Assembly: GCF_001528665.1 (NCBI RefSeq)
Contig: NZ_BBYJ01000004.1
Span: forward strand, 310,472-374,471
Length of the DNA: 64,000 bases
From: Microtetraspora malaysiensis
GTDB lineage: Bacteria; Actinomycetota; Actinomycetes; Streptosporangiales; Streptosporangiaceae
Reading direction: 5' to 3'
Shown: piece by piece, positions 2,710 to 50,739 of the stretch
Numbering within the stretch: position 1 is the stretch's first letter
Layout: the number at the start of each line of letters is the position of its first letter
Notes under the pieces: generated by a model
What the model was told of the DNA's origin: nothing
Seen by the model: only the letters and a program-made list of their open reading frames with translations
The model's database searches: none
Translations under genes and position numbers: made by a program

Positions 2710-2802
2710 GAGGCGGGCCGGCCCGTCACTTCAGCTTGGCGAGGCGGGCCGCCCCGTCACTTCAGCTTGGCGAGGCGGGCCGCCCCGTCACTTCAGCTTG
2801 GC
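2710..2802. repeat. Three perfect/near-perfect tandem copies of a 31-bp unit (gaggcgggccgccccgtcacttcagcttggc) spanning the stop codon of the DUF305 gene
   Basis: Units at 2710-2740, 2741-2771, 2772-2802; only one mismatch (G/C in unit 1). Each unit encodes ...LAKLK-stop on the minus strand, i.e. the gene 3' end is triplicated. Confidence 0.9.
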
Positions 2803-3480
2803 GAGGTAGCCCTTCATCTCCTTGATCTCGGCCTTCTGCGTGCCGATGATCGTCTTGGCCATCGCCTTGGCGTCCGCGAAGGCACCGGAGGCGATCTCCT
2901 CCTCGGACATCTTGATCGCACCCTGGTGATGCTTGATCATCAGCGTGATGAAGAGGCGGTCGAACGGGGAGCCGTCGGCCTGGGCGAGCTTGGCGATATC
3001 GGCCTTGGCCAGCATGCCCGGCATCGCGTGGTCACGCGGGAGGGGCTCCTCGCCCCAGCCGTCCAGCCACCCCTTCATGGTCCGGATCTCCGGGTCCTGC
3101 GCCTCGGTGATCTTCGCGGCGAGGTCCCTGATCCACTGGTCGCCGGCCTGGGTCCGGGCGAGCCCGGCCATGTCGATGGCCTGCAGATGGTGCGGGATCA
3201 TCATCTTCGCGAAGGAGATGTCCGCGTCGTTGTGCCCCGCCGCGTCACCCGGGTCCCCAGCATCGGACGGAGACTCGGAGGGAGAGTCGGACGGCTCCCC
3301 GGCCGCGGACGGCGTGTCCGAGGCGACGGCCGACGGCGACGCGGCCGCGGTGTCGGACGCCGCCGCGGCCGACGGGGACGGAGCCGCGGCGTCCGTTCCG
3401 GAGCCGGAGCACCCGGCGAGCATGGTCAGCGCGACCGCGCCCGCGACGACCGGCAGGACGATCCGGCTAAAGCTGGTCAC
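2788..3480 (-). CDS. DUF305-family secreted lipoprotein
   Basis: Lipoprotein signal (RIVLPVVAGAVALTMLAGCSG lipobox) then DUF305 His-rich repeats (MMIPHHLQAIDMA ... LMIKHHQGAIKMS). Start placed at GTG 3478-3480; upstream in-frame ATG at 3597 also possible. Ser/Pro/Ala-rich linker. Confidence 0.65.
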   Translation of the reverse strand: MTSFSRIVLPVVAGAVALTMLAGCSGSGTDAAAPSPSAAAASDTAAASPSAVASDTPSAAGEPSDSPSESPSDAGDPGDAAGHNDADISFAKMMIPHHLQAIDMAGLARTQAGDQWIRDLAAKITEAQDPEIRTMKGWLDGWGEEPLPRDHAMPGMLAKADIAKLAQADGSPFDRLFITLMIKHHQGAIKMSEEEIASGAFADAKAMAKTIIGTQKAEIKEMKGYLAKLK

Positions 3481-3784
3481 TCGGAAGGAACCTTTCTCAG
3501 CGGGGCCAGAATGGTACAGACCGAAAGAGAGGCTTCCGCCGGTCCGTGATCTCGTTGTCAAGGACCCTACCGCGACGAGCACGCAGCCCTTCGTCACTCA
3601 GTTCGACCATTGATGGTCAAGGCGCCGGTCAACCCGCTTTCTTCATCGCCGTTCGCCGGAATACGTTCGCGTTCTCCACGGCGAAATCCCGCGTTGAGCT
3701 GCTATTGAACTGCCACCGAACTGCCGCGAAAACAACAGGACAGCAGGCCCCTGACCATATCGAACGGGGGCCGAATACTCCGAA

Positions 3785-3806
3785 AGGTTTCATACGGATG
3801 AAACCT
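3785..3806. promoter_or_regulatory. 9-bp perfect inverted repeat with 4-nt spacer (aggtttcat acgg atgaaacct)
   Basis: Read directly; lies in the relatively AT-rich intergenic region upstream of the LacI gene, just 5' of a TTGACA -35-like hexamer at 3810-3815. Confidence 0.4.
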
Positions 3807-3840
3807 CTGTTGACACGCACGAAACAGTGATACGTTCCGT

Positions 3841-3854
3841 TGGGAGCGCTCCCA
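3841..3854. promoter_or_regulatory. Perfect CebR-box operator TGGGAGCGCTCCCA
   Basis: Exact 14-bp palindrome identical to the published Streptomyces CebR (cellobiose/cello-oligosaccharide repressor) consensus; 30 bp upstream of the LacI-family gene start (ATG 3885 with GGAGA ribosome-binding site). Confidence 0.7.
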
Positions 3855-3884
3855 AGCCGTAACACTTCGGGCCGAGGAGACGGA

Positions 3885-4875
3885 ATGGCCGATCTTCCCA
3901 CCCTCGCGGAGGTAGCCGCCGCAGCCGGCGTCTCTCCGGCGACCGCGTCCCGGGTCCTCACCGGCTCGGTCCGCGTGACGACCTCCACCCGCCGTCAGGT
4001 GCACGACGCCATGTCCCGCCTCGGCTACGTACGGCGACGCGCGCCCCGCGGCTCCGGGGGCAGGCGCACCGACCAGATCATCGCCGCCGTCGTCTGCGAG
4101 CAGACTCCGCGACTCTTCAGCGAGCCCTTCTACGCCAGGCTGCTGTCCGCCTGCGAGGACACGCTGGCGGCGCACGGCGTCCCGATGGTCGTCATGACCG
4201 CCACGCCCGCGACCACGGCGATCGCCGCCCCGCCGCTGGTCGCGGGGGCGGTGGACGGGGTGCTCCTGGTGAGCGCCCGATCGCGCCACCCGCTCGCGGT
4301 CACCCTCGCCGCCTCGGGCATCCCCGTACGCTGCGCGGGCCGTCCCCCGGACGGCGTCGAGCTGCCGTACGTCGACATTGACAACCAGGACGGCGGGCGG
4401 CAGGCGGCCGAGCACCTCCTGCTGAGCAACCGGAGGGCCATCGCGATCATCGCCGGCCCCCCGACGCTCCCCGCCGCCAGGGACCGCCTGGACGGGTTCC
4501 GCCAGACGCTCCGCGACGCGGGCGTCGCCGACCCGCCGGTCGCGTACGGCGACTTCAGCCACGCCTCCGGCGCGCACGCCATGCAGTGGCTGCTGCAACG
4601 GGCGCCGCACCTGGACGCCGTCTTCGCCGCGTCGGACGTCATGGCGGCCGGGGCCATGCAGACGCTGCGCCGCGCCGGGCGCAAGGTGCCGGACGACGTC
4701 GCCGTGGTCGGCTTCGACGACGCGCCGATCGCCCGGCACACCTCCCCCACCCTGACCACCGTCCGCCAGCCCGTCGAGGAGCTCGCCTCACTCGCCGCCA
4801 AGCTGCTCCTCGCCTCGGTGGCCGAGGCCAGGGTGTCCGAGGGCGACCCGGTGCTGCCCACGGAACTGGTGGTTC

Positions 4876-4889
<14 letters not shown>
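3885..4889 (+). CDS. LacI-family transcriptional regulator (candidate CebR-like, autoregulated)
   Basis: N-terminal HTH MADLPTLAEVAAAAGVSPATASRVLTG followed by periplasmic-binding-protein-like sugar-binding fold; ribosome-binding site GGAGA before ATG 3885; CebR box immediately upstream. Confidence 0.75.
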
Positions 4890-6528
<1,639 letters not shown>

Positions 6529-6651: not shown

Positions 6652-8280
6652 TCACGGCAGCCAGTAGTTGCCGGAGGCCAGGATCATGACCTGGAGCTGG
6701 ATGCTGGCCGAGTAGTAGTCGTTGGACGAGAACGACGTGTTGACCATCTTCGTCCACAGCGCGTCGAGCCACGCCTGGCTGCCCGGGTCCGTCATCGCGG
6801 TCACCGCGAACGGGGCGAAGAAGGCGGGCTCGCTGCCGCTGCTGATCTGTGAGCCGCTCAGCGCGTACCCGACGCCGATGCTGTTCGCGTTGCCGCCGGC
6901 CTTGCTCTTGATCCACGTGTTGATCTTCCGGGCGGAGGCCAGGGACGCGCTGTCGCCGCTGGTCACGGCGTCGGCGCCGATGCGCCAGGGGTCGCGGCAG
7001 GCGTTCCACCAGTACTTGCCGTCGTTCGCGTCCTCCAGCACCTTGCCCGGCGCGGGCTTGGGTGTGGTGTTCGTGTTGACCACGAAGTCCGCGAGCAGGC
7101 CGGTGCTTGACGCGTAGTTCGCCTGCTGGGAGGTGATCAGGTTCTGGTGCGCCGTCCTGATCGTGTCCCACGCGCTGTCACCGGTGGCCTTCTTGAACGC
7201 CCGGAAGTGGTCGATCATCCAGTCGGACGAGCGGGTGACGTAGTACAGCGAGTCGCCCGAGGTGCTCCAGTCGCCCAGCAGCGTCAGGTGGGTCGTCGGG
7301 TTCACCTCGTTGGCCTTGATCGCATTGATGTGCTTGACGGCCAGATCCTTGTAGTTGTACGTCCCGGAGCTCCCCCACTGCCGGTCGGCCAGCAGCAGGC
7401 CGAGCGCGACGTCCAGGTCGCCGTCGGTGGCCGAGTCGGAGCCGTTGACGCTCTTGCACGAGGAGTCCTGCTCGGCCGCGAGCAGGTTGGGGTTGTGCAC
7501 GGACGGGTGGGCCAGCATGTACTTGACCATCCCGTCGAAGATCGTCTTCGCGTTGGAGTCGGCCCCGGCCATGGTGGCGACCACGACCATGCCGTAGCCC
7601 TGTCCCTCGGCGACGTAGGGGTGGTCGGCGTCCGGCGAGATCACCTGGTACCAGCCGTTCCCGCAGTTCTGCCGGATGAAGGCGGACTTCCACTTGCCGT
7701 AGTAGTCGATCACCTTCTGGTCGAGCGTCGCCTGGGAGCCCGTCGGGCGCAGCGTCCCGGCCGCGTACGCGAACTGGTGGCTGCCGAAGGGCACGGCCGG
7801 GCCGGTGCCGCCGCCGCCGTCCTGGCTGACCACGGTGAGCTTGTCGACGTTCGGCCCGCCGTCCGCGCCGGTCCCGGTGGCCCGGACGGTGTTGGTGCCC
7901 GCCTTGAGGGTGACCGAGACCGACGTGTCGGCCCAGGTGTCCCAGCTCCCGGTCCCCGCGAAGGACACGCCGGTCGCGACCGTGGTCCCGTTGACCGCGA
8001 TGTCCATCGGGCGCGCGGTCGTCGTGCCGTTGGCGTACCGGAGGGTCAGCGTGGCCGGGCCGGCCGCGGCCGAGGACGCCGACCACTGCACGTAGCCGCC
8101 GGCGGCGTTGACGTAGTCGACGAATCCGGTCCCGGTGTATCCGGTGTGGTTGGTGGCCACCGAGGCCCCGGAGAGCGTGGCGTCCTCGGCCTGGTAGACG
8201 GTCGTCGCCGCGGCGGCGGGATGGGCCGTGGCCAGGGGAAGCAGCAGTCCCGCGACGATGATCAATGGTCGAATGCGCAT
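6652..8280 (-). CDS. Secreted glycoside hydrolase family 8 with N-terminal CBM6/35-like carbohydrate-binding module
   Basis: Signal peptide MRIRPLIIVAGLLLPLATAHPAAAA; CBM-like module (TVYQAEDATLSGASVATNHTGYTGTGFVDY...); GH8 (alpha/alpha)6 catalytic region (ACRDPWRIGADA, WIKSKAGG...) consistent with chitosanase/endoglucanase/xylanase family GH8. Confidence 0.65.
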   Translation of the reverse strand: MRIRPLIIVAGLLLPLATAHPAAAATTVYQAEDATLSGASVATNHTGYTGTGFVDYVNAAGGYVQWSASSAAAGPATLTLRYANGTTTARPMDIAVNGTTVATGVSFAGTGSWDTWADTSVSVTLKAGTNTVRATGTGADGGPNVDKLTVVSQDGGGGTGPAVPFGSHQFAYAAGTLRPTGSQATLDQKVIDYYGKWKSAFIRQNCGNGWYQVISPDADHPYVAEGQGYGMVVVATMAGADSNAKTIFDGMVKYMLAHPSVHNPNLLAAEQDSSCKSVNGSDSATDGDLDVALGLLLADRQWGSSGTYNYKDLAVKHINAIKANEVNPTTHLTLLGDWSTSGDSLYYVTRSSDWMIDHFRAFKKATGDSAWDTIRTAHQNLITSQQANYASSTGLLADFVVNTNTTPKPAPGKVLEDANDGKYWWNACRDPWRIGADAVTSGDSASLASARKINTWIKSKAGGNANSIGVGYALSGSQISSGSEPAFFAPFAVTAMTDPGSQAWLDALWTKMVNTSFSSNDYYSASIQLQVMILASGNYWLP

Positions 8281-8419
8281 CTCATCTCATCCTGTGTGGT
8301 GACGAGGATCGGCTGGAGGCGTGCGCCGGGGCCGGTACGGACCCGGAGATCGGTCGGGGCCCGGACGACTCGCGTCCGGGCGGGGGGACGGGGTGCCGCG
8401 CGGTCAGGACGGGGCGAAG

Positions 8420-8438
8420 GTTAGGAAAGCTTCCTAAC
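8420..8438. promoter_or_regulatory. 8-3-8 perfect inverted repeat GTTAGGAA agc TTCCTAAC followed by TTTT
   Basis: Read directly; lies between GH13 stop and GH8 start in an otherwise GC-rich spacer; could be operator or terminator. Confidence 0.35.
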
Positions 8439-8585
8439 TTTTGCTGCTATGGCACCAGCCGGGCCGCCCATCGTCAAGACCCAAAAATCAGCCGCATCCG
8501 CCCGGCCGACTCCCCGCCTGACGCCGCTCCACGGCGAAGGGCCCGGACGGGAGCGATCCCGTCCGGGCCCTTCGCCCGTCGTGCC

Positions 8586-10175
8586 TCAGACCAGCCAGGC
8601 CGCCGTGTCGGCGCGCAGGAGGTCGCCGTCGAGCGGCCCGCTGGCGAGCAGCACCGCCTCGTGCGGCGGCAGCCGCACGGGGTCGGGGCCGAGGTTGACG
8701 ACGCAGGTCACGCCGGTGTCGCGGGTGAAGGCGAGCACGGAGTCGCCCAGCGGCAGCCAGGTCATGGCGCCGTCGCCGAGCCGCTCGTGGCGGAGGCGCA
8801 GCGCGGCCCGGTACAGCGACAGCATCGACCCGGGATCGGCCCGCTGCGCCTCGACCGTGAGGTCCTTCCACGCGGCCGGCTGCGGAAGCCACGGCTCGCC
8901 CGTGCTGTACCCGAACGGCGACTCGCTGCCCGACCAGGGCAGCGGCACGCGGCATCCGTCCCGGCCCGGCACGGTGTGCCCGGAGCGGCGCCACATGGGG
9001 TCCTCGCGCAGCTCGCCCGGGATGTCCTCCACCTCCGGCAGCCCCAGCTCCTCGCCCTGGTAGACGTACACGCTGCCGGGCAGGGCCATGGCGAGCAGCG
9101 CCGCCGCCCTGGCCCGGCGGTACCCCAGCTCGGGGTCGTGCGGCGCGCCGTCCCTGCGGTCGGCGTTGTCCCAGGACGTGTCGGCCCTGCCGTACCGGGT
9201 GACGGGGCGGGCGACGTCGTGGTTGGACAGCACCCAGGTCGCGGGGGCGCCCAGCGGGACGTGCGTCGCCAGGGTCAGGTCGATGGCCCGGCGCAACGCC
9301 CCCGCCTCCCAGGCGGAGGAGAGGAAGTCGAAGTTGAAGGCGGTGTGCAGCTCGTCCGGCCGGAGATACCGGGCGAACCGCTCCTGGTCGGGCAGCCACA
9401 CCTCCCCGATGAGCGCGCGGCCCGGGTACTCGTCGCAGACCCGCCGCCACTCCCGGTAGATGTCGTGGACGCCGTCGTGGTCGGTGTAGGACTCCTCCAC
9501 GCTGTCCAGGTCTTTCAGGAGCACGGCGGCGGAGTCGATGCGGAAGCCGTCCACGCCGCGGTCGAACCAGAACCGCAGGATGTCCAGGAACTCGGCGCGG
9601 ACCCGCGGGTTCTCCCAGTTGAAGTCCGGCTGCTCGGGAGCGAAGAGGTGCAGGTACCACTCCCCGTCCGGGACACGGGTCCAGGCGGGCCCGCCGAAGA
9701 TGGAGCGCCAGCCGTTGGGCGGGGTGTCGCCGTCGCCCTCGCGGAACCAGAACCGCTTCCTGGCCTCCGAACCGGGACCGGCGGCCAGCGCCTCCTGGAA
9801 CCAGGCGTGGCGGTCGGATCCGTGGTTGGGCACGACGTCGATGATGACCCGGATGCCGTGGGCGTGCGCCTCCTCGATCAGCGCCTCCGCCTCCGGCAGG
9901 GTGCCGAAGACCGGTTCGATGCCCCGGTAGTCGGCCACGTCGTACCCGCCGTCGGCCATCGGCGACGGGTACCACGGGTTGAGCCAGATCGCGTCCACGC
10001 CGAGATCGGCGAGGTACGGCAGGCGGGCCCGCAGCCCCGCCAGGTCTCCGGTGCCGTCGCCGTTCCCGTCGGCGAAGCTGCGCAGGTACACCTGGTAGAT
10101 CGCGGCGCCGCGCCACCATTCTTCTTCGGGTTGTGGAGTGGTCCCCCGAGAGGCATTGCCGGACATGCTGAACAC
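8586..10175 (-). CDS. GH13 alpha-glucosidase / oligo-1,6-glucosidase
   Basis: WWRGAAIYQVYLRSFADGNGDGTGDLAGL..LGVDAIWLNPWYPSPMADGGYDVADY...GIRVIIDVVPNHGSD: canonical GH13 subfamily 31/23 N-terminal and catalytic motifs. Confidence 0.85.
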   Translation of the reverse strand: MFSMSGNASRGTTPQPEEEWWRGAAIYQVYLRSFADGNGDGTGDLAGLRARLPYLADLGVDAIWLNPWYPSPMADGGYDVADYRGIEPVFGTLPEAEALIEEAHAHGIRVIIDVVPNHGSDRHAWFQEALAAGPGSEARKRFWFREGDGDTPPNGWRSIFGGPAWTRVPDGEWYLHLFAPEQPDFNWENPRVRAEFLDILRFWFDRGVDGFRIDSAAVLLKDLDSVEESYTDHDGVHDIYREWRRVCDEYPGRALIGEVWLPDQERFARYLRPDELHTAFNFDFLSSAWEAGALRRAIDLTLATHVPLGAPATWVLSNHDVARPVTRYGRADTSWDNADRRDGAPHDPELGYRRARAAALLAMALPGSVYVYQGEELGLPEVEDIPGELREDPMWRRSGHTVPGRDGCRVPLPWSGSESPFGYSTGEPWLPQPAAWKDLTVEAQRADPGSMLSLYRAALRLRHERLGDGAMTWLPLGDSVLAFTRDTGVTCVVNLGPDPVRLPPHEAVLLASGPLDGDLLRADTAAWLV

Positions 10176-10218
10176 AGCTCCTTACACAGATGGGTGAACC
10201 GGCGGACGCGCGGCCGCG

Positions 10219-11226
10219 TCAGCCTTTGAGGCTTCCAGCGGTGAGGCCGGCCATGATGCTGCGCTGGAAGAACAGGAAGACCACGATGGCGGGGACGCTG
10301 GCGATGACGAGCGCGGCCATGAGAACGTTCTGCGGCATCTGGGCGGAAAGGGAGGAAATGCCGACGCTGATCGGCATCTTGTCGGTGTCCGGCTGCACGA
10401 GCAGCGGCCAGACGAAATCCTTCCAGACGTTCACCACCGCCAGGATGGACACCACGCCGAGGATCGGCCGCGACACCGGCAGCACGATCGACCAGAGGAT
10501 CCGCGCGGGGCTGGCACCGTCCATCTCGGCGGCCTCGATCAGCTCACGCGGGATCGAGTCGAAGAACCGCTTGAGCAGGAAGATGAAGAACCCGTTCGCG
10601 GCGGCGGGCAGCCAGATCGCCCAGGGCGTGTTCAGCAGGTTCCAGCCCAGGATCGGCAGCTCTTTGACCGTCAGGTACGCCGGCAGCAGGATCACCATCG
10701 GCGGGATCATCAGGGTCGACAGCATCATGGCCAGGACCGCCTTGCCGAGCAGCGGCCGCAGCTTCGACAGCGCGTACGCCGCGGACACGTCGAAGGCCAG
10801 CGTGAACAGCCAGGCCCCGACGGCGTAGACGACCGTGTTGCGCAGGAAGAGGCCCAGGTCAAGCTGGTCCCACGCCTCCATGTACACCCCGAAGTCGATC
10901 TTCTCGGGGAAGAGCGAGGGCGGGATCTGGGCGATCTCCTCCGGCGACTTCAGCGCGCTGGTGACCATCCAGTACAGCGGGAAGACGAAGATCGCGGTGA
11001 ACGCCGTCACCACGGCGACGAGGACCGTCCAGTAGACGATCCGGCCGCGGGTGGTGGTCAGCGTGTGCGGCGAGACCAGGCCGCGGGCCGCGCGCCGCTC
11101 CCCCGTCCGGCCCGTACGGCGGCGTCCGCTCCTCCGTACCGGCGTGGGCGGCCCGAGCGGGGCCCGCCGGTCCGGGCGGACGTCGGCGTCGGACGCCCCG
11201 GCCGTGCGGTTCGACATCGGTGCCAC
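10219..11226 (-). CDS. Carbohydrate ABC transporter permease (MalG/AglG-like)
   Basis: 6-TM permease with EAA loop region (IELIEAAEMDGASPARILWSIVLPVSRP); start 7 bp after upstream permease stop; Arg-rich N-terminal extension may not all be translated. Confidence 0.75.
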   Translation of the reverse strand: MAPMSNRTAGASDADVRPDRRAPLGPPTPVRRSGRRRTGRTGERRAARGLVSPHTLTTTRGRIVYWTVLVAVVTAFTAIFVFPLYWMVTSALKSPEEIAQIPPSLFPEKIDFGVYMEAWDQLDLGLFLRNTVVYAVGAWLFTLAFDVSAAYALSKLRPLLGKAVLAMMLSTLMIPPMVILLPAYLTVKELPILGWNLLNTPWAIWLPAAANGFFIFLLKRFFDSIPRELIEAAEMDGASPARILWSIVLPVSRPILGVVSILAVVNVWKDFVWPLLVQPDTDKMPISVGISSLSAQMPQNVLMAALVIASVPAIVVFLFFQRSIMAGLTAGSLKG

Positions 11227-11232
11227 TCCCCT

Positions 11233-12180
11233 TCAGTTCTTGTCGTCCCGCGAGACGCGCAGGTAGACGGCCGAGAACACCATCAGCACGATCATGAGCA
11301 TGAGGCCCAGCGCGCCGCCGCCGCCGAAGTTCCCGAAGCTGAAGGCGTACTGGTACATGAGGTAGGCGACGGTGACGGTCGCGTTCTCCGGCCCGCCGCC
11401 GGTCAGCAGGTACGGCTCGATGAAGACCTGCATGGTCGCGACGATCTGCAGCAGCAGCATCACCAGGAGGATCAGCCGGGTCTGCGGGATCGTGACGTGC
11501 CAGACCCGGCGCAGCAGCCCGGCACCGTCCAGCTCCGCCGCCTCGTACAGCTCGCCGGGGATGCTCTGCAGCGCCGCGAGGTAGATCAGCGTGCCGGTGC
11601 CGAGGTTCATCCACGTGGACACGATGACCAGCGAGATCAGCGCCGTCGTGGTCGAGTCGAGCCAGCTCAGCGTGGGCAGGTGGACGACGTCGAGTATCTG
11701 GTTGAACAGCCCGGGACCCGGGTCGTAGAACCACTTGAACAGCAGCACCGCGACGGCAGGCGGCAGCATCACCGGCAGGTAGACGACGACCCTGAGATAC
11801 GCCTTGGCGTGCCGCAGCTCGTTGAGGACCAGCGCGATCACGAACGGCACGGCGTATCCGGCGACCAGCGCGAGCAGGGTGAACATCGCGGTGTTGATCC
11901 AGGCCGGCCCGAACGCCGGGTCCTCCGTCACCGTGCGGAAGTTGTCCAGCCCCACCCACTCGGGCGGCCCGACGAAGTTCGTCTTCTGGAAGCTGAGCAG
12001 GAACTCCCGGATCATCGGGTACCAGGAGAAGAACGCGAAGCAGACGAGCGCCCCGCAGAGGAACCCGTACGCCGTGAGGTTGCGGCGCACGGCACGCCTC
12101 ATCGCCTCCCGGCCCCGCCGCCGCGAGCTCCGCACGGTGATTGTGGTCATCGGTTTTGACTCCTGAATCGACGTGACCAC
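11233..12180 (-). CDS. Carbohydrate ABC transporter permease (MalF/AglF-like)
   Basis: MetI-like permease, EAA motif LYEAAELDGAGLLRRVWHVTIPQTR; same strand and tight spacing with substrate-binding-protein and second permease. Confidence 0.8.
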   Translation of the reverse strand: MVTSIQESKPMTTITVRSSRRRGREAMRRAVRRNLTAYGFLCGALVCFAFFSWYPMIREFLLSFQKTNFVGPPEWVGLDNFRTVTEDPAFGPAWINTAMFTLLALVAGYAVPFVIALVLNELRHAKAYLRVVVYLPVMLPPAVAVLLFKWFYDPGPGLFNQILDVVHLPTLSWLDSTTTALISLVIVSTWMNLGTGTLIYLAALQSIPGELYEAAELDGAGLLRRVWHVTIPQTRLILLVMLLLQIVATMQVFIEPYLLTGGGPENATVTVAYLMYQYAFSFGNFGGGGALGLMLMIVLMVFSAVYLRVSRDDKN

Positions 12181-12217
12181 CGGGGCGCCGCGCGTCGGCG
12201 GCGCCCCGGAGCCGAGG

Positions 12218-13591
12218 TCAGCTCGACTTGGCGAGGATGTTGTCGACCTTCTTCTGCGCGTCCGCGAGCAGCTGGTCGACGTTCGCGTCCTGCCTGGTCA
12301 GCACCGCCGACATCGCCGTGTCAAGCACCGCGTAGATCTCCTGGGCCTTCGGCGGCTCCAGCTTGAACTGGACGTTCGCCGCGCCGTCCACGTACGACTG
12401 GAAGTGGTCGACCGGAACCGTCGCGAACTGCGTGCGCTGCTCGTTGATCTTCACGCCGGGCGGGGTCGAGCCGTACAGGTCGGTGCTGGGCAGGCCGACC
12501 GGCAGCCCGTCGGTCTTGCTCCGCTCGTAGTTGAACTGGCCCTGGCCCGGGGTCAGGAAGCGGTACTCCAGCCACATCAGGCCCGCCTTGATCTTCTCGG
12601 GCGTGGCCTTGGGGTTGAACATGTAGCCGTCGCCGCCGCTCAGCGACTGCGTGGCCTCGGGCAGCGCGGTCACGCCGTAGTCCTCGAACTTGCCCTTGAA
12701 GTCGTTGTTGACGGCCTGGACGACGTCGGGGGCGCCGATCATCATGCCGAGCTTGCCGGAGCCCATCATCCGCATGAGGTCCTCCCAGCGGAGGAGCTGC
12801 TTGGTGCCCATGCTGTTGTCGGTCCAGCGCATCTCCTTGAGGTTCTCCAGCACCGCCTTGCCCTCGGGGCCGTTGAACGCCGACTGCTTGCCGTCGGGGG
12901 TGACCATCTCGCCGCCCCGCCCGTACAGCGCGGAGGTGAAGTGCCAGCCGCCGGTGTTGCCGGCGCTGTACTCGCCGTACCCGACGTAGCCGGCGCCGAG
13001 CGCGGCGATCTTCTTGGCCGCCTCCCGGACCTCGGACCAGGTCTTGGGCGGGCTGTCCGGGTCGAGACCGGCCTGGGTGAAGAGCTTGCGGTTGTACACC
13101 AGGCCCGTGGAGTAGTTGGTGCGCGGAAGGCCGTAGATCTTGTCGCCGCTCTTGAAGACGCTCAGCACGTCCGGGCGCATGTCCTTCAGCGTGGTCACCG
13201 TGTCGACGTACGGCGTGATGTCGGCGGCCTGCCCGGCGGCGATGATCCTCTGGACGTCGGTGTAGTAGACGTAGAAGAGGTCCTCCATCTCCCCTCCGGC
13301 CAGCTTGGCCTGGAACGTCTCCGGGACGATGCAGGGGAACGCGTCCTTGCTCTCGATCGTGATGTTCGAGTGGAGCTTCTGGAACGCGGCGACGTCGGCG
13401 TCCCACTGAGCGCGTTCCTTCGGGTTGCTCTTCGGCGGCTGGCAGCCGACCGTGATCGTGACCGGGGCGTCCGCCCCGGCCGACGCGGCGGGCTTGGCAC
13501 TGTCCTTCGCGTCGTCACCGCCGCTGCCGCAGGCGGCGACGGTGAGGGTGATGCCTGCCGCCAGCAGTATCGAGAGGTTGCGGGATTTCAT
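12218..13591 (-). CDS. ABC transporter extracellular solute-binding lipoprotein (family 1, sugar)
   Basis: Start ATG at 13589-13591 preceded by ribosome-binding site GGAGGG; lipoprotein signal MKSRNLSILLAAGITLTVAACGSGG; family-1 substrate-binding-protein body. The longer 529-aa ORF in the track is an upstream read-through. Confidence 0.8.
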   Translation of the reverse strand: MKSRNLSILLAAGITLTVAACGSGGDDAKDSAKPAASAGADAPVTITVGCQPPKSNPKERAQWDADVAAFQKLHSNITIESKDAFPCIVPETFQAKLAGGEMEDLFYVYYTDVQRIIAAGQAADITPYVDTVTTLKDMRPDVLSVFKSGDKIYGLPRTNYSTGLVYNRKLFTQAGLDPDSPPKTWSEVREAAKKIAALGAGYVGYGEYSAGNTGGWHFTSALYGRGGEMVTPDGKQSAFNGPEGKAVLENLKEMRWTDNSMGTKQLLRWEDLMRMMGSGKLGMMIGAPDVVQAVNNDFKGKFEDYGVTALPEATQSLSGGDGYMFNPKATPEKIKAGLMWLEYRFLTPGQGQFNYERSKTDGLPVGLPSTDLYGSTPPGVKINEQRTQFATVPVDHFQSYVDGAANVQFKLEPPKAQEIYAVLDTAMSAVLTRQDANVDQLLADAQKKVDNILAKSS

Positions 13592-13714
13592 CTTGTTCCC
13601 TCCTGGAACGGCACACCACGACCCGTCTAGGCGCCCCCGCTCGCCCACCGTCTCATCGAACGGCCACGAGCCGGACATTTGCCTGAAACATACAAAGCGC
13701 CACATATAAGAGCA

Positions 13715-13730
13715 AGACGCTGGTGCGTCT
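13715..13730. promoter_or_regulatory. 6-4-6 inverted repeat AGACGC tggt GCGTCT in AT-rich promoter region of the sugar ABC operon
   Basis: Read directly; in the only AT-rich stretch (catatataagagcaagacgctggtgcgtctgatgcaaaaaag) between the substrate-binding-protein start and LacI stop. Confidence 0.3.
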
Positions 13731-13925
13731 GATGCAAAAAAGTGACAGCAATGCGAATCTCCATGGCAGCGCCCATCGATCGCCGACGGCATGAGGAGGG
13801 GCGGCATCGGGCCCGGATCAGGGGGTCACCCGGGCGGGATCGGCCGACGTGACCGGCCAAGGCGGGACCGGCCCAGGCGGGACCGGACGCGCGGGACTGG
13901 GCCACACGGGCGGGAGAGACCGGGC

Positions 13926-14954
13926 TCAGGCGGGATCGGCCGGCGCGGGTCCCGTGGAGGAGCGTACGACCAGCTCGGGCTCGAACAGCAGCTCGTCACC
14001 CGGGACGGCGCCCGCGCGGATCTGCGAGACGAGCAGTTCGACGGCGGCCCGCCCCATCGCCTCGATGGGCTGGCGCACGGTCGTCAGCGGCGGATCGGCG
14101 CAGTTCATCAGCGCCGAGTCGTCGTAGCCGACGACGGAGACGTCCCCCGGGACCGACAGCCCGGCCCGGCGGGCGGCGCGGATCGCGCCGAGGGCCAGCA
14201 CGTCGCTGGCGCAGGCGATGCCGGTGACGCCGCGCCGCACCAGCCGGGCCGCCGCGGCGTGGCCGCCCTCGATCGAGAACAACGCGTGCTCGACCTGCTC
14301 GGGGCCCAGCTCCAGCCCCTTCTCCTCCGCGAACGCCCGGAACGCGGCGAGCTTGCGCCGGGACGGCACATGGTCGGGCGAGCCGAGCAGGATGCCGACG
14401 CGACGGTGGCCGAGGGCCAGCAGGTGGGCGAGCGCCATCTCGGCGGCGGCCACGTCGTCGCAGGAGACCTGGGGGAAGCGCAGGTGCTCGACGGCGGCGT
14501 TGACCAGCACGATGGGGAGCCCCCGCTCCCGCACCCGCTCGTAGTGCGTGTGTGACGCGTTGCCCTGGGCGTACAGGCCGCCGGCGAAGACGATGCCGGA
14601 CACGTGCTGCTGGAGGAGCAGATCGACGTAGTCGGCCTCCGAGACGCCCCCGACCGTACGGGTGCAGAGCACGGGCGTGAATCCCTGCTGGGCCAGCGCT
14701 CCGCCGACGACCTCGGCGAACGCCGGGAAGATCGGGTTCTGCAGCTCCGGGAGCACCAGGCCGACCAGGCGGCCCCGCTCCCCGCGCAGCCGCGAGGGCC
14801 GCTCGTACCCGAGCACGTCGAGGGCGGTGAGCACGGCCTCTCTGGTCGCGTCGGACACGCCGGGCTTGCCGTTGAGGACGCGGCTGACCGTCGCCTCGCT
14901 CACGCCCACCTTCTTGGCCACTTCCGCAAGCCGTCGCGTCATGAACGCAAGCAT
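13926..14954 (-). CDS. LacI-family transcriptional regulator (paralog 1)
   Basis: HTH MTRRLAEVAKKVGVSEATVSRVLNGKPGVSDATREAVLTALDVLGYERP; sugar-binding core. Confidence 0.8.
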   Translation of the reverse strand: MLAFMTRRLAEVAKKVGVSEATVSRVLNGKPGVSDATREAVLTALDVLGYERPSRLRGERGRLVGLVLPELQNPIFPAFAEVVGGALAQQGFTPVLCTRTVGGVSEADYVDLLLQQHVSGIVFAGGLYAQGNASHTHYERVRERGLPIVLVNAAVEHLRFPQVSCDDVAAAEMALAHLLALGHRRVGILLGSPDHVPSRRKLAAFRAFAEEKGLELGPEQVEHALFSIEGGHAAAARLVRRGVTGIACASDVLALGAIRAARRAGLSVPGDVSVVGYDDSALMNCADPPLTTVRQPIEAMGRAAVELLVSQIRAGAVPGDELLFEPELVVRSSTGPAPADPA

Positions 14955-15066
14955 ACGACAATTCGCGTAAGAATTTGCGTTCGCTTGCGCGGCGTACGCG
15001 TCCGGCCGGAGCGACCGCCACGGTCGCCCGGCCGAGCCGACCGGCGGCGCAGGGTGAATCAGGCGG

Positions 15067-16071
15067 TCAACCGGCGGCAGCGCGGGGGCGGGCCGTGGAG
15101 GCGCGCACCACCAGTTCGGGCTCGAAGAGCAACTCGCCGGTCGCGACCGCGGTCCCGTCGATCTGGTTGACCAGCAGCTCGACCACGGCCCGGCCCATCG
15201 CCTCGATCGGCTGCCGGATCGTCGTCAGCGGCGGATCCACGCACGTCATCAGCGCGGAGTCGTCGTAGCCGACCACGGACACGTCCTGGGGCACCCGCAA
15301 CCCCTGCCGGCGGGCGGCCCGGACCACCCCGAGCGCGAGCGGATCGCTGCCGCAGACGATGCCCGTCACATCCCGGGCGAGCAGCTTGGCCGCCGCCGCG
15401 TGGCCGCCCTCCAGCGAGTGCATGGTGTGCTCGACCAGCTCGCCGCCGGACGCCCGGAACGCCTCCAGCTTGCGTACGGACGGCATGTGGTCGGGCGGGC
15501 CGACGACGAGGCCGACGCGCTCGTGCCCGAGCGACCGCAGGTGGCCCACGGCCTGCTCGACGGCGATCGAGTCGTCACACGACACGCGGGGGAACTCCCA
15601 GTGGTCGGCGGCCGCGTTCACGAGGACCGTCGGCAGCCGCCGGTCGATCAACCTGAGGTAGTGCTCGTGCACCACCCCCGCCTGCGTGTACAGGCCGCCC
15701 GCGAAGACCACGCCGGACACCTGCTGCTGCAGCAGGAGATCGACGTAGTCCGCCTCCGAGATGCCGCCGACGGTACGGGTGCAGAGCACGGGCGTGAACC
15801 CCTGCTGGGCGAGGGAGCCGCCGACCACTTCGGCGAACGCCGGGAAGATCGGGTTCTGCAGCTCCGGGAGCACCAGGCCGACCAGGCGGCCCCGCTCTCC
15901 GCGGAGCTGCGTGGGCCGCTCGTATCCGAGCACGTCAAGCGCGGTGAGCACCGCCTCCCGCGTCGCGTCCGAAACGCCCGCCTTGCCGTTGAGCACGCGA
16001 CTCACCGTCGCCTCGCTCACCCCCACTTTTTTGGCAACTTCGGCAAGTCGTCGCGTCATGGGCGCAAGCAT
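15067..16071 (-). CDS. LacI-family transcriptional regulator (paralog 2, tandem duplicate)
   Basis: N-terminal about 130 aa nearly identical to paralog 1 (about 90% nucleotide identity over roughly 400 bp read by eye), C-terminal effector domain diverged. Confidence 0.8.
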   Translation of the reverse strand: MLAPMTRRLAEVAKKVGVSEATVSRVLNGKAGVSDATREAVLTALDVLGYERPTQLRGERGRLVGLVLPELQNPIFPAFAEVVGGSLAQQGFTPVLCTRTVGGISEADYVDLLLQQQVSGVVFAGGLYTQAGVVHEHYLRLIDRRLPTVLVNAAADHWEFPRVSCDDSIAVEQAVGHLRSLGHERVGLVVGPPDHMPSVRKLEAFRASGGELVEHTMHSLEGGHAAAAKLLARDVTGIVCGSDPLALGVVRAARRQGLRVPQDVSVVGYDDSALMTCVDPPLTTIRQPIEAMGRAVVELLVNQIDGTAVATGELLFEPELVVRASTARPRAAAG

Positions 16072-16189
16072 AGGTCCGGCAACACCGGTACTTTACGATC
16101 TCCTGCTTTTGTAAGCGGGTTGTAAGTGACCTGCAAGGGGGCGTCCCTAACGTCGCTCCCCGTCTCAAAGATCACTAGGAAGGCAATCA

Positions 16190-30877: not shown

Positions 30878-30886
30878 CAGCGCTGT
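30839..30886. repeat. 12-bp tandem repeat x4 (atgagcacaccg on minus strand) encoding MSTP MSTP MSTP MSTP at the 5' end of the giant ATPase gene
   Basis: cat at 30839-41, 30851-53, 30863-65, 30875-77 on plus strand, each followed by the same 9 bases. Confidence 0.85.
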
Positions 30887-30926
30887 CGTGGGCGCGTCAC
30901 GTGGTCCTCGGTGCCGGGTCGCACCA

Positions 30927-33074: not shown

Positions 33075-33086
33075 CGAAGATCCCTG

Positions 33087-33647
33087 CTATTGAAGGTCGT
33101 AAGGCATGACCAAGAAGAACTCGCCCTCCGGGTCATAGTCGAAGATCAGAGCGGAGCTGCCGGCACGCAGATCCTCGTCTCCGGTCTGGCGCACCTGCAC
33201 AAGGGCCGAGGAGCCGTCATCGGCCGTGACCTCGGCCTGACCGAAGTCGTGCCCGACCCGTCCCGTGCGGATGACGCACATGCGGCCGACGAAATCGGCC
33301 CGGGACGGCGAAGCCACCGCGGGGAACAGGGCGCGGCTCGCCCGCGCGACCAGGCGGGCGCAGAGCCATCCGGCCAGCAGCGCGACCACGAGCACCGCCC
33401 ACCGAGCGGGAGGCCCCTCGGCCAGCACCACGCCGACCAGGCTGACGAACCAGGCGACCACGACCAGCAGCGACAGCGCCACGGCACCCGGCACTCCCCG
33501 TAGGCCGAGACCGGCGAGGAAATCGTCGGGGAGCTCCATCCCGAGTCCGCCGAGCAGCACGAGCGCCCAATAGACGATGACGACGATCAGCATGAAGCTG
33601 AACAGCACCGCCGGAAACTCCAGCACCGCATCGACGAACCGCGCCAT
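33087..33647 (-). CDS. NfeD-like membrane protein (flotillin partner, YuaF-like OB-fold)
   Basis: Three to four TM helices then C-terminal beta OB-fold (GRMCVIRTGRVGHDFGQAEVTADDGSSALVQVRQ...); 13 bp upstream of flotillin on same strand. Confidence 0.7.
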   Translation of the reverse strand: MARFVDAVLEFPAVLFSFMLIVVIVYWALVLLGGLGMELPDDFLAGLGLRGVPGAVALSLLVVVAWFVSLVGVVLAEGPPARWAVLVVALLAGWLCARLVARASRALFPAVASPSRADFVGRMCVIRTGRVGHDFGQAEVTADDGSSALVQVRQTGDEDLRAGSSALIFDYDPEGEFFLVMPYDLQ

Positions 33648-33687
33648 TGACTCCCACCGTTATCCCGGCCCCCAGAGACAACTGCAA

Positions 33688-35964: not shown

Positions 35965-36149
35965 CGCCCCGCTCCGAGCGCGGGAAGGACGCCGATCAGC
36001 ACCACGGCCGCCATCGCCATCGCGAGCAGCCCGACGTAGATCCACAGGCCGACCAGGAGCCTCCTGGAGATCCGGTACGGCCGCTCGACGCGCCGCCGGG
36101 CGGCCATGTGGTGGTGAACCGCCTTCTCCCGGTACGGAAGTCCCGTCAT
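35961..36149 (-). CDS. Small single-TM membrane protein (62 aa) translationally coupled within the graspetide operon
   Basis: ATG 36147-36149 overlaps the stop of the upstream parvulin-like gene (ATGA), and its own stop overlaps the ABC transporter start (ATGA). Sequence MTGLPYREKAVHHHMAARRRVERPYRISRRLLVGLWIYVGLLAMAMAAVVLIGVLPALGAGR has one hydrophobic helix. Confidence 0.45.
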   Translation of the reverse strand: MTGLPYREKAVHHHMAARRRVERPYRISRRLLVGLWIYVGLLAMAMAAVVLIGVLPALGAGR

Positions 36150-38157: not shown

Positions 38158-38206
38158 CGGCGGGGCTCCGGACGGGGGCGCGACGCGGTCGCGCCCCCGC
38201 GGCGAA

Positions 38207-38356
38207 CTAGTTGCTGTCGCCGGAGGTGTGCGTGTGGTTGCCGCAGATCTCGATGACCTGGCTCTTGGCGCCACCGCTCACCTGAAGAAGCTGACCCTCG
38301 TCGAGCTCCGGACCGAAGGCCGCGATGTCGTCGAGGGTGGTACGCGTCTTGCTCAT
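38207..38356 (-). CDS. Graspetide precursor peptide (49 aa) with double-glycine leader
   Basis: Ribosome-binding site GGGAGAAAGG 10 bp before ATG 38354-56. Sequence is MSKTRTTLDDIAAFGPELDEGQLLQVSGG / AKSQVIEICGNHTHTSGDSN: leader ends in GG (substrate for the C39 transporter), and the core carries Thr/Ser hydroxyl donors and Asp/Glu acceptors. Confidence 0.7.
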   Translation of the reverse strand: MSKTRTTLDDIAAFGPELDEGQLLQVSGGAKSQVIEICGNHTHTSGDSN

Positions 38357-39546: not shown

Positions 39547-39584
39547 CCGCCCCTCCCGTCGGACTTTCGGGAAAAGCTACACCT

Positions 39585-41696: not shown

Positions 41697-41753
41697 GACG
41701 ACAAGCTTAGCTGGAGCTTGTGAAGTCATTCAACCAGTGCTTTACTCAAAAGC

Positions 41754-50710: not shown

Positions 50711-50739
50711 GGTTACCCCCCAGCATGAAGGAGTGTGAC

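What the first reader, a model, noticed from the sequence alone, without database searches (positions are those of the whole stretch)
3780..3890. Perfect CebR box (TGGGAGCGCTCCCA) plus a 9-bp hairpin in the promoter of a LacI regulator
The 14-bp palindrome is identical to the Streptomyces cellobiose-repressor operator. It sits 30 bp before the LacI-family gene, downstream of a TTGACA -35-like hexamer. The gene is therefore either cebR itself (autoregulated) or under CebR control. This links the window (GH8, GH13, LPMO, sugar ABC transporter) to cello-oligosaccharide sensing. A separate 9-bp stem (aggtttcat/atgaaacct) just upstream is a second potential protein-binding site.
Basis: partly seen in the sequence, partly recalled or inferred. 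Interest (0 to 1): 0.55.

Follow-up and report, generated by a model that had tools for sequence, protein, structure and literature searches.

The report
Cellobiose-repressor box before regulator–kinase operon
A perfect cellobiose-repressor (CelR/CebR) binding site sits on the promoter of a two-gene operon encoding a diverged copy of that repressor and a membrane protein kinase; the arrangement is conserved in related actinomycetes and was listed in a 2012 genome survey, so it is real but mostly ordinary.

Summary
TGGGAGCGCTCCCA lies at 3841-3854, 30 nt before the ATG at 3885. TTGACA is at 3810-3815 and the 9-bp inverted repeat at 3785-3806. About 0.001 exact boxes are expected by chance.

The window is about 96% identical to Microtetraspora malaysiensis, not Streptomyces.

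All 14 Streptosporangiaceae orthologues carry the exact box 36-52 nt before the start codon. All are followed by an orthologous Ser/Thr kinase.

The LacI gene is not cebR/celR. It is a paralogue, 44-45% identical to T. fusca CelR and to synteny-defined Streptomyces CebR. Its recognition residues are S-P-A rather than G-R-G, and it lacks the usual hinge helix.

The true celR lies elsewhere, in a cebEFG-bglC-celR operon with two perfect boxes.

Best reading: CelR sits on the transcription start and cellobiose releases it, switching on a second-tier regulator-kinase module.

Anderson et al. 2012 already listed this site for Streptosporangium roseum and Thermobispora bispora.

The claimed link to the neighbouring GH8, GH13, LPMO and ABC genes fails. 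GH8 has a chitosanase-type (CsnR) operator, and the box-like site at 8548 is a terminator hairpin.

The TTGACA, the conserved GAAAC and the hairpin fit a GlnR-type activator site. That is a lead, not a result.

The parts
3841..3854 (.). CelR/CebR operator, exact TGGGAGCGCTCCCA
   Evidence: It is the only exact copy in the window. It is exact in 14 of 14 Streptosporangiaceae orthologous promoters, 36-52 nt before the ATG, and in the M. malaysiensis reference. It starts 4 nt after the predicted -10, so it covers the predicted transcription start; that position is inferred.
3828..3836 (+). Predicted extended -10 (TG-a-TACGTT)
   Evidence: T3828, G3829 and T3831 are invariant and A3832 nearly invariant in promoter alignment A2. 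The hexamer fits the TAnnnT pattern. This is inferred; there are no transcription-start data. The sigma-70 consensus scan found no 16-18-nt-spaced promoter.
3810..3815 (+). TTGACA: a -35-like hexamer, or the a2 site (TTGAC) of a GlnR-type box
   Evidence: T3810, T3811, A3813 and C3814 are invariant, while position 3812 varies between G and A. It lies only 15 nt from the -10, which is shorter than the 16-18 nt that the sigma-70 consensus scan requires.
3821..3825 (+). Conserved GAAAC within the promoter spacer (candidate GlnR b2 site)
   Evidence: G3821, A3823, A3824 and C3825 are invariant across 15 promoters. Together with TTGAC it forms TNAC-N6-GAAAC. This matches the consensus gTnAc-n6-GaAAc (PMC10704036) and the promoter layout in PMC10235972.
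3785..3806 (.). Inverted repeat AGGTTTCAT-acgg-ATGAAACCT
   Evidence: The arms AGGTTTC and GAAACCT are conserved in Microtetraspora, Microbispora and Herbidospora, with an 8-nt variable centre. The repeat is absent from Planobispora and Nonomuraea. It ends 3 nt before TTGACA. There is no T-run and no Rfam match. It contains candidate GlnR a1 and b1 sites (TTCAT 3789-3793, GAAAC 3800-3804).
3875..3879 (+). Ribosome-binding site AGGAG
   Evidence: It lies 5 nt before the ATG. AGG is invariant in alignment A2.
3885..4889 (+). LacI-family regulator, 334 aa: a CelR paralogue ('A-type')
   Evidence: It has the LacI helix-turn-helix and sugar-binding domains and is 99% identical to an M. malaysiensis protein. 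It is 44% identical to CelR. Its clade is separate from CelR, with 93% and 100% bootstrap support respectively. Residues at LacI positions 16-18 are S-P-A and the hinge reads RRRAPRGS. AlphaFold2 predicts coil with pLDDT below 50 for residues 49-61.
4876..6528 (+). Receptor Ser/Thr protein kinase, 550 aa; its start overlaps the LacI stop
   Evidence: It has a Pkinase domain. An orthologous kinase follows the LacI gene in 15 loci fetched, and a Pkinase gene follows it in L082, L083 and L084. The architecture is kinase domain, one membrane helix, a variable Pro/Thr-rich linker, then a conserved ~95-aa C-terminal domain. That domain is predicted as a four-helix bundle with pLDDT above 90.

Best explanation
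The 14-bp palindrome is a genuine CelR/CebR-type operator. It sits immediately after the predicted -10 element, over the predicted transcription start of a two-gene operon. That operon encodes a diverged CelR paralogue and a membrane Ser/Thr kinase.

Proposed mechanism:
1. Without cellobiose, the canonical CelR repressor binds the site and blocks RNA polymerase. CelR is encoded elsewhere in the genome, in the cebEFG-bglC-celR operon.
2. When cellobiose enters, CelR falls off and the paralogue and kinase are made.
3. The pair then acts as a second regulatory tier that responds to cellulose breakdown products.

Shown here:
- the site and its exact conservation;
- the operon structure;
- the paralogy;
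- the presence of the cognate repressor in the species.

Inferred:
- that CelR is the binding protein;
- the position of the transcription start;
- cellobiose induction;
- everything about what the paralogue and the kinase do afterwards.
For: - The exact box is unique in the window, with 0.0009 expected by chance.
- It is exact in all 14 Streptosporangiaceae orthologous promoters at a fixed position, between a conserved TGnTAnnnT element and the ribosome-binding site. A one-mismatch copy lies at -38 in Phytoactinopolyspora.
- The LacI-kinase pairing is conserved in 15 loci and in L082, L083 and L084.
- The canonical celR of M. malaysiensis lies in cebE-F-G-bglC-celR, with two perfect boxes 130 bp apart. 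The same holds in Microtetraspora sp. NBRC 13810.
- That protein has the recognition helix GVGRGTVSRVING. T. fusca CelR has the same helix (PDB 5ysz). So do synteny-defined Streptomyces CebR proteins.
- Binding of CebR to this box and its release by cellobiose are published for Streptomyces; T. fusca CelR binding and release are cited in the genome survey (PMC4358012, PMC3377646).
- Anderson et al. 2012 listed a perfect CelR site upstream of the same gene pair in S. roseum (Sros_0944/0943) and T. bispora (Tbis_0861/0860).
- In other genera the paralogue sits among cellulase and LPMO genes that have their own boxes.
Against: - There is no binding or expression data for this organism.
- The transcription start is not mapped, and the consensus promoter scan found nothing.
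- In Micromonosporales the site at the paralogue's promoter is degenerate or missing. The control is therefore not universal.
- The box is the only conserved palindrome at these promoters. The paralogue might therefore use it too.
Confidence: 0.7

Rival explanations
1. Autoregulation. The encoded LacI paralogue itself binds TGGGAGCGCTCCCA, either alone or in competition with CelR, so the site is its own operator.
For: - The box is the only palindrome conserved at all paralogue promoters.
- The sister 'C-type' regulators of Actinomadura have the same SPATASRV helix. They sit in cellulase clusters behind two perfect boxes.
- The helix-turn-helix of the paralogue is under strong conservation, so it is still a DNA-binding protein.
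- Sugar-pocket positions largely match those of CelR.
Against: - The residues that read bases differ. LacI positions 16-18 are S-P-A in 13 of the 14 paralogues compared (S and A in all 14). They are G-R-G in all 11 CelR proteins compared and in the two synteny-defined Streptomyces CebR proteins.
- The hinge lacks the Leu at LacI position 56 and has Pro at position 53. AlphaFold2 predicts it as low-confidence coil.
- Hinge-helix insertion is needed for specific operator binding in studied family members (PMC5866929).
- The Catenulispora relative keeps the same helix, but the palindrome upstream of it is TGAGAGCGCTCTCA.
Confidence: 0.25
2. The gene is cebR/celR itself, autoregulated as in Streptomyces.
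For: - It is a LacI-family gene directly behind a perfect box.
- Streptomyces cebR genes also have boxes upstream (PMC3538285 Table 2).
Against: - It is 44-45% identical to CelR and CebR, against 62-65% for the true orthologues in the same genera.
- It falls in a separate clade, and both copies occur in the same strains.
- It has no cebEFG-bglC neighbours.
- The canonical celR operon is found elsewhere in M. malaysiensis.
Confidence: 0.03
3. The TTGACA, the conserved GAAAC in the spacer and the upstream hairpin together form a binding site for a GlnR-type (OmpR-family) activator. The promoter would then need an activator and be vetoed by CelR, joining nitrogen status to cellobiose availability. 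This adds to the best explanation rather than replacing it.
For: - The layout is TTCAT-n6-GAAAC-n5-TTGAC-n6-GAAAC, followed 5 nt later by the -10.
- The invariant alignment columns (T3811, A3813, C3814; G3821, A3823, A3824, C3825) are exactly the informative letters of gTnAc-n6-GaAAc. The 'n' positions vary (consensus from PMC10704036).
- Nonomuraea TTAAC-n6-GAAAC matches the M. smegmatis form of the consensus.
- In the GlnR-polymerase structure the a2 site lies around the -35 element and b2 lies downstream of it (PMC10235972). That would explain the odd 15-nt spacing.
- TNAC-N6-GAAAC occurs 3 times in the window against 0.43 expected.
- GlnR is reported to bind many sugar ABC-transporter promoters (PMC10704036).
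Against: - The pattern is short and degenerate.
- The a1 site is imperfect, and the gap between b1 and a2 is 5 nt rather than 6.
- The a1-b1 pair is found in only three genera.
- A plain -35 element would also conserve TT-AC.
- No GlnR target promoter from this lineage could be fetched for comparison.
Confidence: 0.35
4. The palindrome is a chance or non-functional sequence, and the hairpin is a terminator or structured RNA.
For: The region folds somewhat better than shuffled sequences (z = -2.05).
Against: - 0.0009 exact boxes are expected by chance.
- The box is exactly conserved in 14 of 14 promoters while flanking bases vary.
- There is no T-run after the hairpin and no terminator call on the + strand.
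- There is no Rfam match.
- The upstream gene is divergent, so there is nothing for a terminator to end.
Confidence: 0.02

Closest known systems
CelR operator of Thermobifida fusca and the CebR box (cbs) of Streptomyces
   Same: - The 14-bp sequence TGGGAGCGCTCCCA is identical.
- It sits in a promoter region.
- A cognate repressor with the same recognition helix is encoded in the species.
   Different: The target here is not a cellulase, a cebEFG transporter or cebR. It is a regulatory operon (paralogous LacI plus kinase). Binding has not been tested in this organism.
Sros_0944-Sros_0943 of Streptosporangium roseum and Tbis_0861-Tbis_0860 of Thermobispora bispora (Anderson et al. 2012, PMC3377646, Table S3)
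   Same: - The same gene pair (LacI-family or sugar-binding regulator plus Ser/Thr kinase) lies behind a perfect CelR site.
- S. roseum proteins fall in the same 90% cluster as orthologue P0013.
   Different: - That paper only listed the site.
- It did not describe the altered DNA-binding head of the regulator or the conserved promoter layout.
- It covered only two genomes.
Canonical CelR/CebR repressors (PDB 5ysz; Streptomyces cebR next to cebEFG-bglC)
   Same: - Same fold and same wider clade: 100% bootstrap support against other LacI proteins of the window.
- Most sugar-pocket positions are shared.
   Different: - 44-45% identity.
- S-P-A instead of G-R-G at the base-reading positions.
- Hinge RRRAPRGS instead of PNRAARTL.
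- Not in a ceb operon.
- Paired with a kinase.
Escherichia coli CytR, a LacI-family member whose hinge and linker flexibility is functionally essential
   Same: - The linker between the DNA-binding and sugar-binding domains is non-canonical. Flexibility of this region is reported as essential to CytR function (PMC5866929).
- CytR was the best-scoring NCBIfam model, although far below its cut-off.
   Different: - There is no evidence that the paralogue works with a partner protein, as CytR does with CRP.
- Sequence similarity is only family-level.
- The comparison is an analogy from the literature and from memory, not a tested relationship.
Staphylococcus aureus CcpA phosphorylated by the kinase Stk1
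   Same: [quoted passage not shown]
- The Thr residues at LacI positions 19 and 34, which lie in the DNA-binding domain, are present in the window protein. They are conserved in 14/14 and 10/14 paralogues respectively. That they correspond to CcpA Thr-18 and Thr-33 is my inference; CcpA was not aligned.
   Different: - In S. aureus the two genes are unlinked. Here they are co-transcribed with overlapping reading frames.
- Phosphorylation of the paralogue is pure inference.

Membership tests
CelR/CebR operator (CebR box) | 14-bp palindrome TGGGAGCGCTCCCA, with at most one mismatch | tested here: met
   Exact match at 3841-3854.
CelR/CebR operator (CebR box) | Lies in the promoter or 5' region of the controlled gene | tested here: met
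   It lies 30 nt before the ATG, between the conserved TGnTAnnnT element and the ribosome-binding site. Overlap with the transcription start is inferred.
CelR/CebR operator (CebR box) | Conserved at orthologous promoters | tested here: met
   Exact in 14 of 14 Streptosporangiaceae loci and in the reference genome. One mismatch in Phytoactinopolyspora. Degenerate in Dactylosporangium and absent in Micromonospora.
CelR/CebR operator (CebR box) | Cognate CelR/CebR repressor encoded in the same genome | tested here: met
   M. malaysiensis P0312 lies in cebEFG-bglC-celR with two perfect boxes. This is shown for the species, not for the exact strain of the window.
CelR/CebR operator (CebR box) | Bound by the repressor and released by cellobiose | not testable with these tools
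   This needs a gel-shift or footprint experiment.
CelR/CebR repressor orthologous group (for the LacI gene 3885-4889) | Groups with characterised CelR/CebR in a tree and is their closest relative in the genome | tested here: not met
   44-45% identity against 62-65% for the true orthologues. The clades are separate, and both copies occur in the same strains.
CelR/CebR repressor orthologous group (for the LacI gene 3885-4889) | Adjacent to cebEFG and bglC | tested here: not met
   Its neighbours are a DUF305 gene and a Ser/Thr kinase. The true celR is in the ceb operon, and Streptomyces cebR is divergent from cebEFG-bglC.
CelR/CebR repressor orthologous group (for the LacI gene 3885-4889) | Recognition helix GVGRGTVSRVING and canonical hinge YVPNxAARxL | tested here: not met
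   The window protein has GVSPATASRVLTG and YVRRRAPRGS. The hinge is predicted as coil with pLDDT below 50.
CelR/CebR repressor orthologous group (for the LacI gene 3885-4889) | Cellobiose-binding pocket | tested here: inconclusive
   Nine of the pocket positions, mapped through LacI numbering, are the same in both groups: R74, L75, P76, G149, R197, F220, S246, D274 and Q291. Four differ: 127, 148, 293 and 296. The contacts in the 5ysz structure could not be read with these tools.
GlnR box / GlnR-dependent promoter | a site gTnAc, 6 nt, b site GaAAc | tested here: met
   TTGAC-ACGCAC-GAAAC at 3810-3825. The informative letters are invariant in 15 promoters.
GlnR box / GlnR-dependent promoter | Second box upstream (a1-b1) at 6-nt distance | tested here: inconclusive
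   TTCAT-n6-GAAAC is present, but a1 is imperfect and the gap to a2 is 5 nt. It occurs in only three genera.
GlnR box / GlnR-dependent promoter | GlnR binding and a response to nitrogen limitation | not testable with these tools
   This needs a gel-shift and expression data.
Intrinsic terminator or known structured RNA (for the hairpin 3785-3806) | G+C-rich stem followed by a T-run, or a match to an Rfam family | tested here: not met
   No terminator-like site on the + strand. No Rfam match at E up to 1.

The most novel reading that the evidence does not exclude
The hinge-less CelR paralogue and its co-transcribed receptor kinase may form a conserved second layer of cellulase control in Streptosporangiales and Micromonosporales.

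The proposed chain is:
1. Cellobiose lifts CelR repression of the pair.
2. The kinase senses an outside signal through its extracellular four-helix bundle.
3. It phosphorylates the paralogue on the conserved Thr residues of its DNA-binding head.
4. The paralogue then competes with CelR at the same boxes, or binds half-sites flexibly.

The promoter may also be gated by a GlnR-type activator, tying cellulose use to nitrogen status.
Probability: 0.2. Interest if true: 0.6.

Novelty: new member of a known kind. Interest (0 to 1): 0.3.

Why it matters
In these actinomycetes the cellobiose repressor appears to control a regulator-kinase pair as well as enzymes and transporters. Cellulose breakdown products could therefore reach beyond sugar metabolism.

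The pair is conserved from Microtetraspora to Micromonospora and often lies among cellulase and LPMO genes. That makes it a reasonable target for anyone engineering cellulase production in these organisms.

For annotation, the case is a warning. A perfect CebR box in front of a LacI gene does not make that gene cebR, and it does not put the neighbouring glycoside hydrolases in the cellulose regulon.

Tried and rejected
- **Promoter scan.** The sigma-70 consensus scan of 3550-3950 found no promoter, because the hexamers are 15 nt apart.
- **Rfam.** Nothing was found in 3400-4000.
- **Box-like site at 8548-8561.** I considered it as a weak CelR site for GH8, since the reference strain has CGGGAGCGCTCCCG there. 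I rejected it. It is the apex of a perfect 20-bp hairpin directly after the GH13 stop codon, so it is a terminator.
- **DasR (dre) site** for the LPMO: none found.
- **Second conserved palindrome** that could be the paralogue's own operator: none found at seven promoters. The minimum arm length of 12 used in that search also missed the 9-bp hairpin of the window.
- **Kinase C-terminal model.** The fold search against the PDB gave only generic helical bundles; no match had E of 0.001 or better.
- **Streptomyces CebR** could not be reached through the protein searches. It was obtained instead from two records in the plasmid collection that carry cebR divergent from cebEFG-bglC. A third Streptomyces hit (plasmid of strain BB1-1-1) was not in a ceb context and was not used as CebR.
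- **P0111** (Kineosporia) had no contig on record.
- **First bootstrap run** timed out and was redone.
Full report
**Observation.** The sequence is as described.
- TGGGAGCGCTCCCA lies at 3841-3854 and is the only exact copy in the window.
- It ends 30 nt before an ATG at 3885, which is preceded by AGGAG at 3875-3879.
- TTGACA is at 3810-3815.
- The inverted repeat AGGTTTCAT-acgg-ATGAAACCT is at 3785-3806.
- From base composition, 0.0009 exact boxes are expected in the window.
- Copies with up to three mismatches occur at chance level: 5 found against 7.9 expected. They carry no weight.

**Organism and gene map.** The window has 71% G+C. It is about 96% identical in DNA to the Microtetraspora malaysiensis genome CP191994.1, with the same gene order. 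It is therefore a member of the Streptosporangiaceae, not a Streptomyces. The genes around the finding are:

| Coordinates | Strand | Product |
|---|---|---|
| 2788-3597 | - | DUF305 protein |
| 3885-4889 | + | LacI-family regulator |
| 4876-6528 | + | Ser/Thr kinase; its start overlaps the LacI stop |
| 6652-8286 | - | GH8 enzyme with CBM35 |
| 8586-10181 | - | GH13 enzyme |
| 10219-12297 | - | two ABC permeases |
| 12218-13825 | - | solute-binding protein |
| 13926-15224 and 15067-16092 | - | two further LacI genes |

**Conservation.** A scan of reference genomes returned 15 orthologous loci with 62-86% protein identity. They come from Microbispora, Herbidospora, Planobispora, eleven Nonomuraea species and one Dactylosporangium MAG.
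- All 14 Streptosporangiaceae loci carry the exact 14-mer 36-52 nt before the start codon.
- All 15 loci have an orthologous kinase directly downstream.
- The promoter alignment shows a clear footprint: C-T-n-T-T-n-A-C, four variable bases, C-G-A-A-A-C-A, then T-G-n-T-A, the box, a variable stretch, and A-G-G before the ATG.
- The box begins 0-4 nt after a TAnnnT hexamer that has TG one base upstream. It therefore covers the expected transcription start. The start position itself is inferred.
- Further relatives were fetched one at a time. Phytoactinopolyspora has cGGGAGCGCTCCCA at -38 but no kinase. Dactylosporangium keeps the kinase but has only a degenerate site. Micromonospora endolithica keeps the kinase and is flanked by GH5, AA10 and GH6 genes. 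Those genes have one-mismatch boxes, but none lies at the LacI promoter.

**The LacI gene is a paralogue, not cebR/celR.**
- Its best solved relative is PDB 5ysz. One search shows 5ysz is 92% identical to the Thermobifida halotolerans orthologue.
- The sensor part of 5ysz is identical to the one in an engineered plasmid whose companion record is annotated MalR-CelR. Together with my own recollection of the sequence, this identifies 5ysz as T. fusca CelR.
- The window protein is 44% identical to it.
- A second set of proteins from the same genera, and even the same strains, is 62-65% identical to CelR. The strains are Microtetraspora sp. NBRC 13810, Planobispora takensis, Planotetraspora mira and Streptosporangium canum.
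- In a neighbour-joining tree the two sets form separate clades, with 93% and 100% bootstrap support. Together they form a wider clade, with 100% support, that excludes the window's other two LacI proteins.
- The CelR-type copy of Microtetraspora sp. NBRC 13810 lies in cebE-cebF-cebG-bglC-celR, with two perfect boxes 130 bp apart before cebE.
- M. malaysiensis has the same operon and the same two boxes.
- Two Streptomyces records in the plasmid collection carry cebR divergent from cebEFG-bglC. One has two perfect boxes in the intergenic region. Their regulators are 54% identical to CelR and 45% to the window protein.

**The DNA-binding head differs** (LacI numbering).

| Feature | CelR/CebR | Window-type paralogues |
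|---|---|---|
| Positions 16-18 | G-R-G in all 11 CelR compared and in both Streptomyces CebR | S-P-A in 13 of 14 |
| Hinge, positions 49-56 | P-N-R-A-A-R-T-L | R-R-R-A-P-R-G-S (Pro at 53, no Leu at 56) |

- An AlphaFold2 model built from 28 paralogues is confident overall (mean pLDDT 88). It predicts residues 49-61 as coil with pLDDT below 50. No control run on a canonical CelR was possible.
[quoted passage not shown] CytR is the known member that depends on a flexible linker (PMC5866929).
- Most positions that line the sugar pocket in LacI are the same in both groups. A cello-oligosaccharide ligand therefore remains plausible but unproven.
- A sister group has the same SPATASRV helix and a similar hinge. 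In Actinomadura it sits between GH5/GH6 and GH48 cellulase genes, behind two perfect boxes.

**The kinase.**
- It has the usual catalytic motifs, one membrane helix and a variable Pro/Thr-rich linker. The linker is 68 residues longer in the window than in the reference strain.
- It ends in a conserved C-terminal domain of about 95 residues.
- That domain is predicted with pLDDT above 90 as a four-helix bundle. No solved structure matches it significantly.
- A precedent exists for kinase control of a LacI-family protein. S. aureus Stk1 phosphorylates CcpA on Thr-18 and Thr-33 of its DNA-binding domain and stops DNA binding (PMC8847796).
- The Thr residues at LacI positions 19 and 34, in the DNA-binding domain, are present in the window protein. 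Their equivalence to CcpA Thr-18 and Thr-33 is my inference, not an alignment result. That the kinase acts on its neighbour is also inference only.

**Prior knowledge.**
- The box is the published CebR/CelR operator (PMC5332605, PMC3538285, PMC4898821).
- Anderson et al. 2012 (PMC3377646) searched eleven actinobacterial genomes for it. Their Table S3 lists a perfect site upstream of Sros_0944 (LacI) and Sros_0943 (Ser/Thr kinase) in Streptosporangium roseum. It also lists one upstream of Tbis_0861 and Tbis_0860 in Thermobispora bispora.
- They noted that the two kinases are 50% identical and both lie next to a LacI regulator. Their tree placed the true CelR orthologues at the ceb operons.
- S. 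roseum proteins fall in the same 90% cluster as orthologue P0013.
- No other paper in the searchable library mentions the pair.

**Promoter layout and the hairpin.**
- The TTGACA and the -10 hexamer are 15 nt apart in every orthologue, which is unusually short. The consensus scan therefore finds no promoter.
- The strongly conserved GAAAC inside the spacer is not expected of a plain promoter.
- The stretch reads TTCAT(3789-3793)-n6-GAAAC(3800-3804)-n5-TTGAC(3810-3814)-n6-GAAAC(3821-3825).
- The invariant alignment columns are exactly the informative letters of the GlnR consensus gTnAc-n6-GaAAc. The 'n' positions vary (consensus from PMC10704036).
[quoted passage not shown] This is the same layout.
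I rate this at about one in three. The pattern is short, a1 is imperfect, and the a1-b1 pair and hairpin arms are conserved in only three genera.
- The hairpin is not a terminator and matches no known RNA family.

**The rest of the window is not tied to cellobiose by this box.**
- No other exact or near-exact box exists.
- The site at 8548-8561 is the tip of a perfect 20-bp hairpin directly after the GH13 stop codon.
- The GH8 enzyme is closest to solved glucanases and chitosanases. Its CBM35 is closest to that of an exo-glucosaminidase.
- About 140 bp before its start lies GTTAGGAAAGCTTCCTAAC (8420-8438). This is one base different from the operator of the chitosanase gene csnN106, which the repressor CsnR binds (PMC3048496).
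- The LPMO at 50710-51483 carries a chitin-type CBM5/12 module. It has a weaker CsnR-like sequence at 50686-50702.
- GH13, the ABC transporter and the two tandem LacI genes look like an alpha-glucoside cluster.

**Conclusion.**
- The best-supported mechanism is repression of the LacI-kinase operon by the canonical CelR at an operator over the transcription start, relieved by cellobiose (confidence about 0.7).
- Use of the same box by the paralogue cannot be excluded (about 0.25, and not exclusive of the first).
- The finding is a real, conserved member of a known regulon that was catalogued in relatives in 2012.
- New here: the regulator has a remodelled DNA-binding head; the module spans two orders and is often embedded among cellulase genes; and the promoter may also need a GlnR-type activator.

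Noticed in passing
window 8420-8438: GTTAGGAAAGCTTCCTAAC lies about 140 bp upstream of the GH8-CBM35 gene. It differs by one base from the CsnR-bound operator of the chitosanase gene csnN106 (PMC3048496). This suggests that the GH8 enzyme belongs to a chitosan regulon.
   Followed up: partly
window 50680-50702: The promoter of the LPMO-CBM5/12 gene contains TTAAGAAACTTTCCTTT, which has three mismatches to the CsnR-type operator. It overlaps a TNAC-N6-GAAAC match at 50680-50694.
   Followed up: partly
window 8534-8575 (approximate span; the box-like 14-mer at its centre is 8548-8561): A perfect 20-bp hairpin, GGCGAAGGGCCCGGACGGGA-GCGa-TCCCGTCCGGGCCCTTCGCC, lies directly after the GH13 stop codon. 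It is probably a terminator. Its tip mimics the CebR box, and in the reference strain the tip reads CGGGAGCGCTCCCG.
   Followed up: yes
window 6205-6525 (C-terminal part of the kinase): The conserved, presumably extracellular C-terminal domain of the kinase is predicted with high confidence as a four-helix bundle. It has no significant match among solved structures, and its ligand is unknown.
   Followed up: partly
window about 5900-6100, compared with L082 12026-12028: The Pro/Gln/Thr-rich linker of the kinase is 68 residues longer in the window than in the M. malaysiensis reference strain (550 aa against 482 aa).
   Followed up: no
L003 7145-8998 (Planobispora takensis): A gene two positions downstream of the LacI-kinase pair encodes a Ser/Thr kinase fused to a GH6 cellulase-like domain. 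It could be a cellulose-sensing receptor kinase.
   Followed up: no
window 3736-3753, minus strand: A terminator-like stem followed by a T-run lies upstream of the divergent DUF305 gene. Two overlapping calls were made against 0.4 expected. It could be an attenuator or leader element.
   Followed up: no
L081 1990-2030 and L091 2090-2130 (ceb promoters of Microtetraspora): Between the two CelR boxes the ceb promoters carry GTAAC-n6-GTTTC-n6-TTGAC with 11-nt periodicity. This is another possible response-regulator site next to a CelR box.
   Followed up: no
window 33832-38277: An ABC transporter with a C39 peptidase domain lies close to an MvdD-like ATP-grasp ligase. This suggests a graspetide or microviridin-type peptide gene cluster.
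   Followed up: no
window 25676-33659, minus strand: There is a 1794-aa protein with DUF3686, DUF7902 and AAA ATPase domains. The next two ORFs have no Pfam match. An N6 DNA methylase and a further kinase lie nearby at 38656-41729. The function is unknown.
   Followed up: no
plasmid collection record NZ_LT559118.1: The 11.85-Mb Nonomuraea gerenzanensis record in the plasmid collection is evidently a whole chromosome filed as a plasmid.
   Followed up: no
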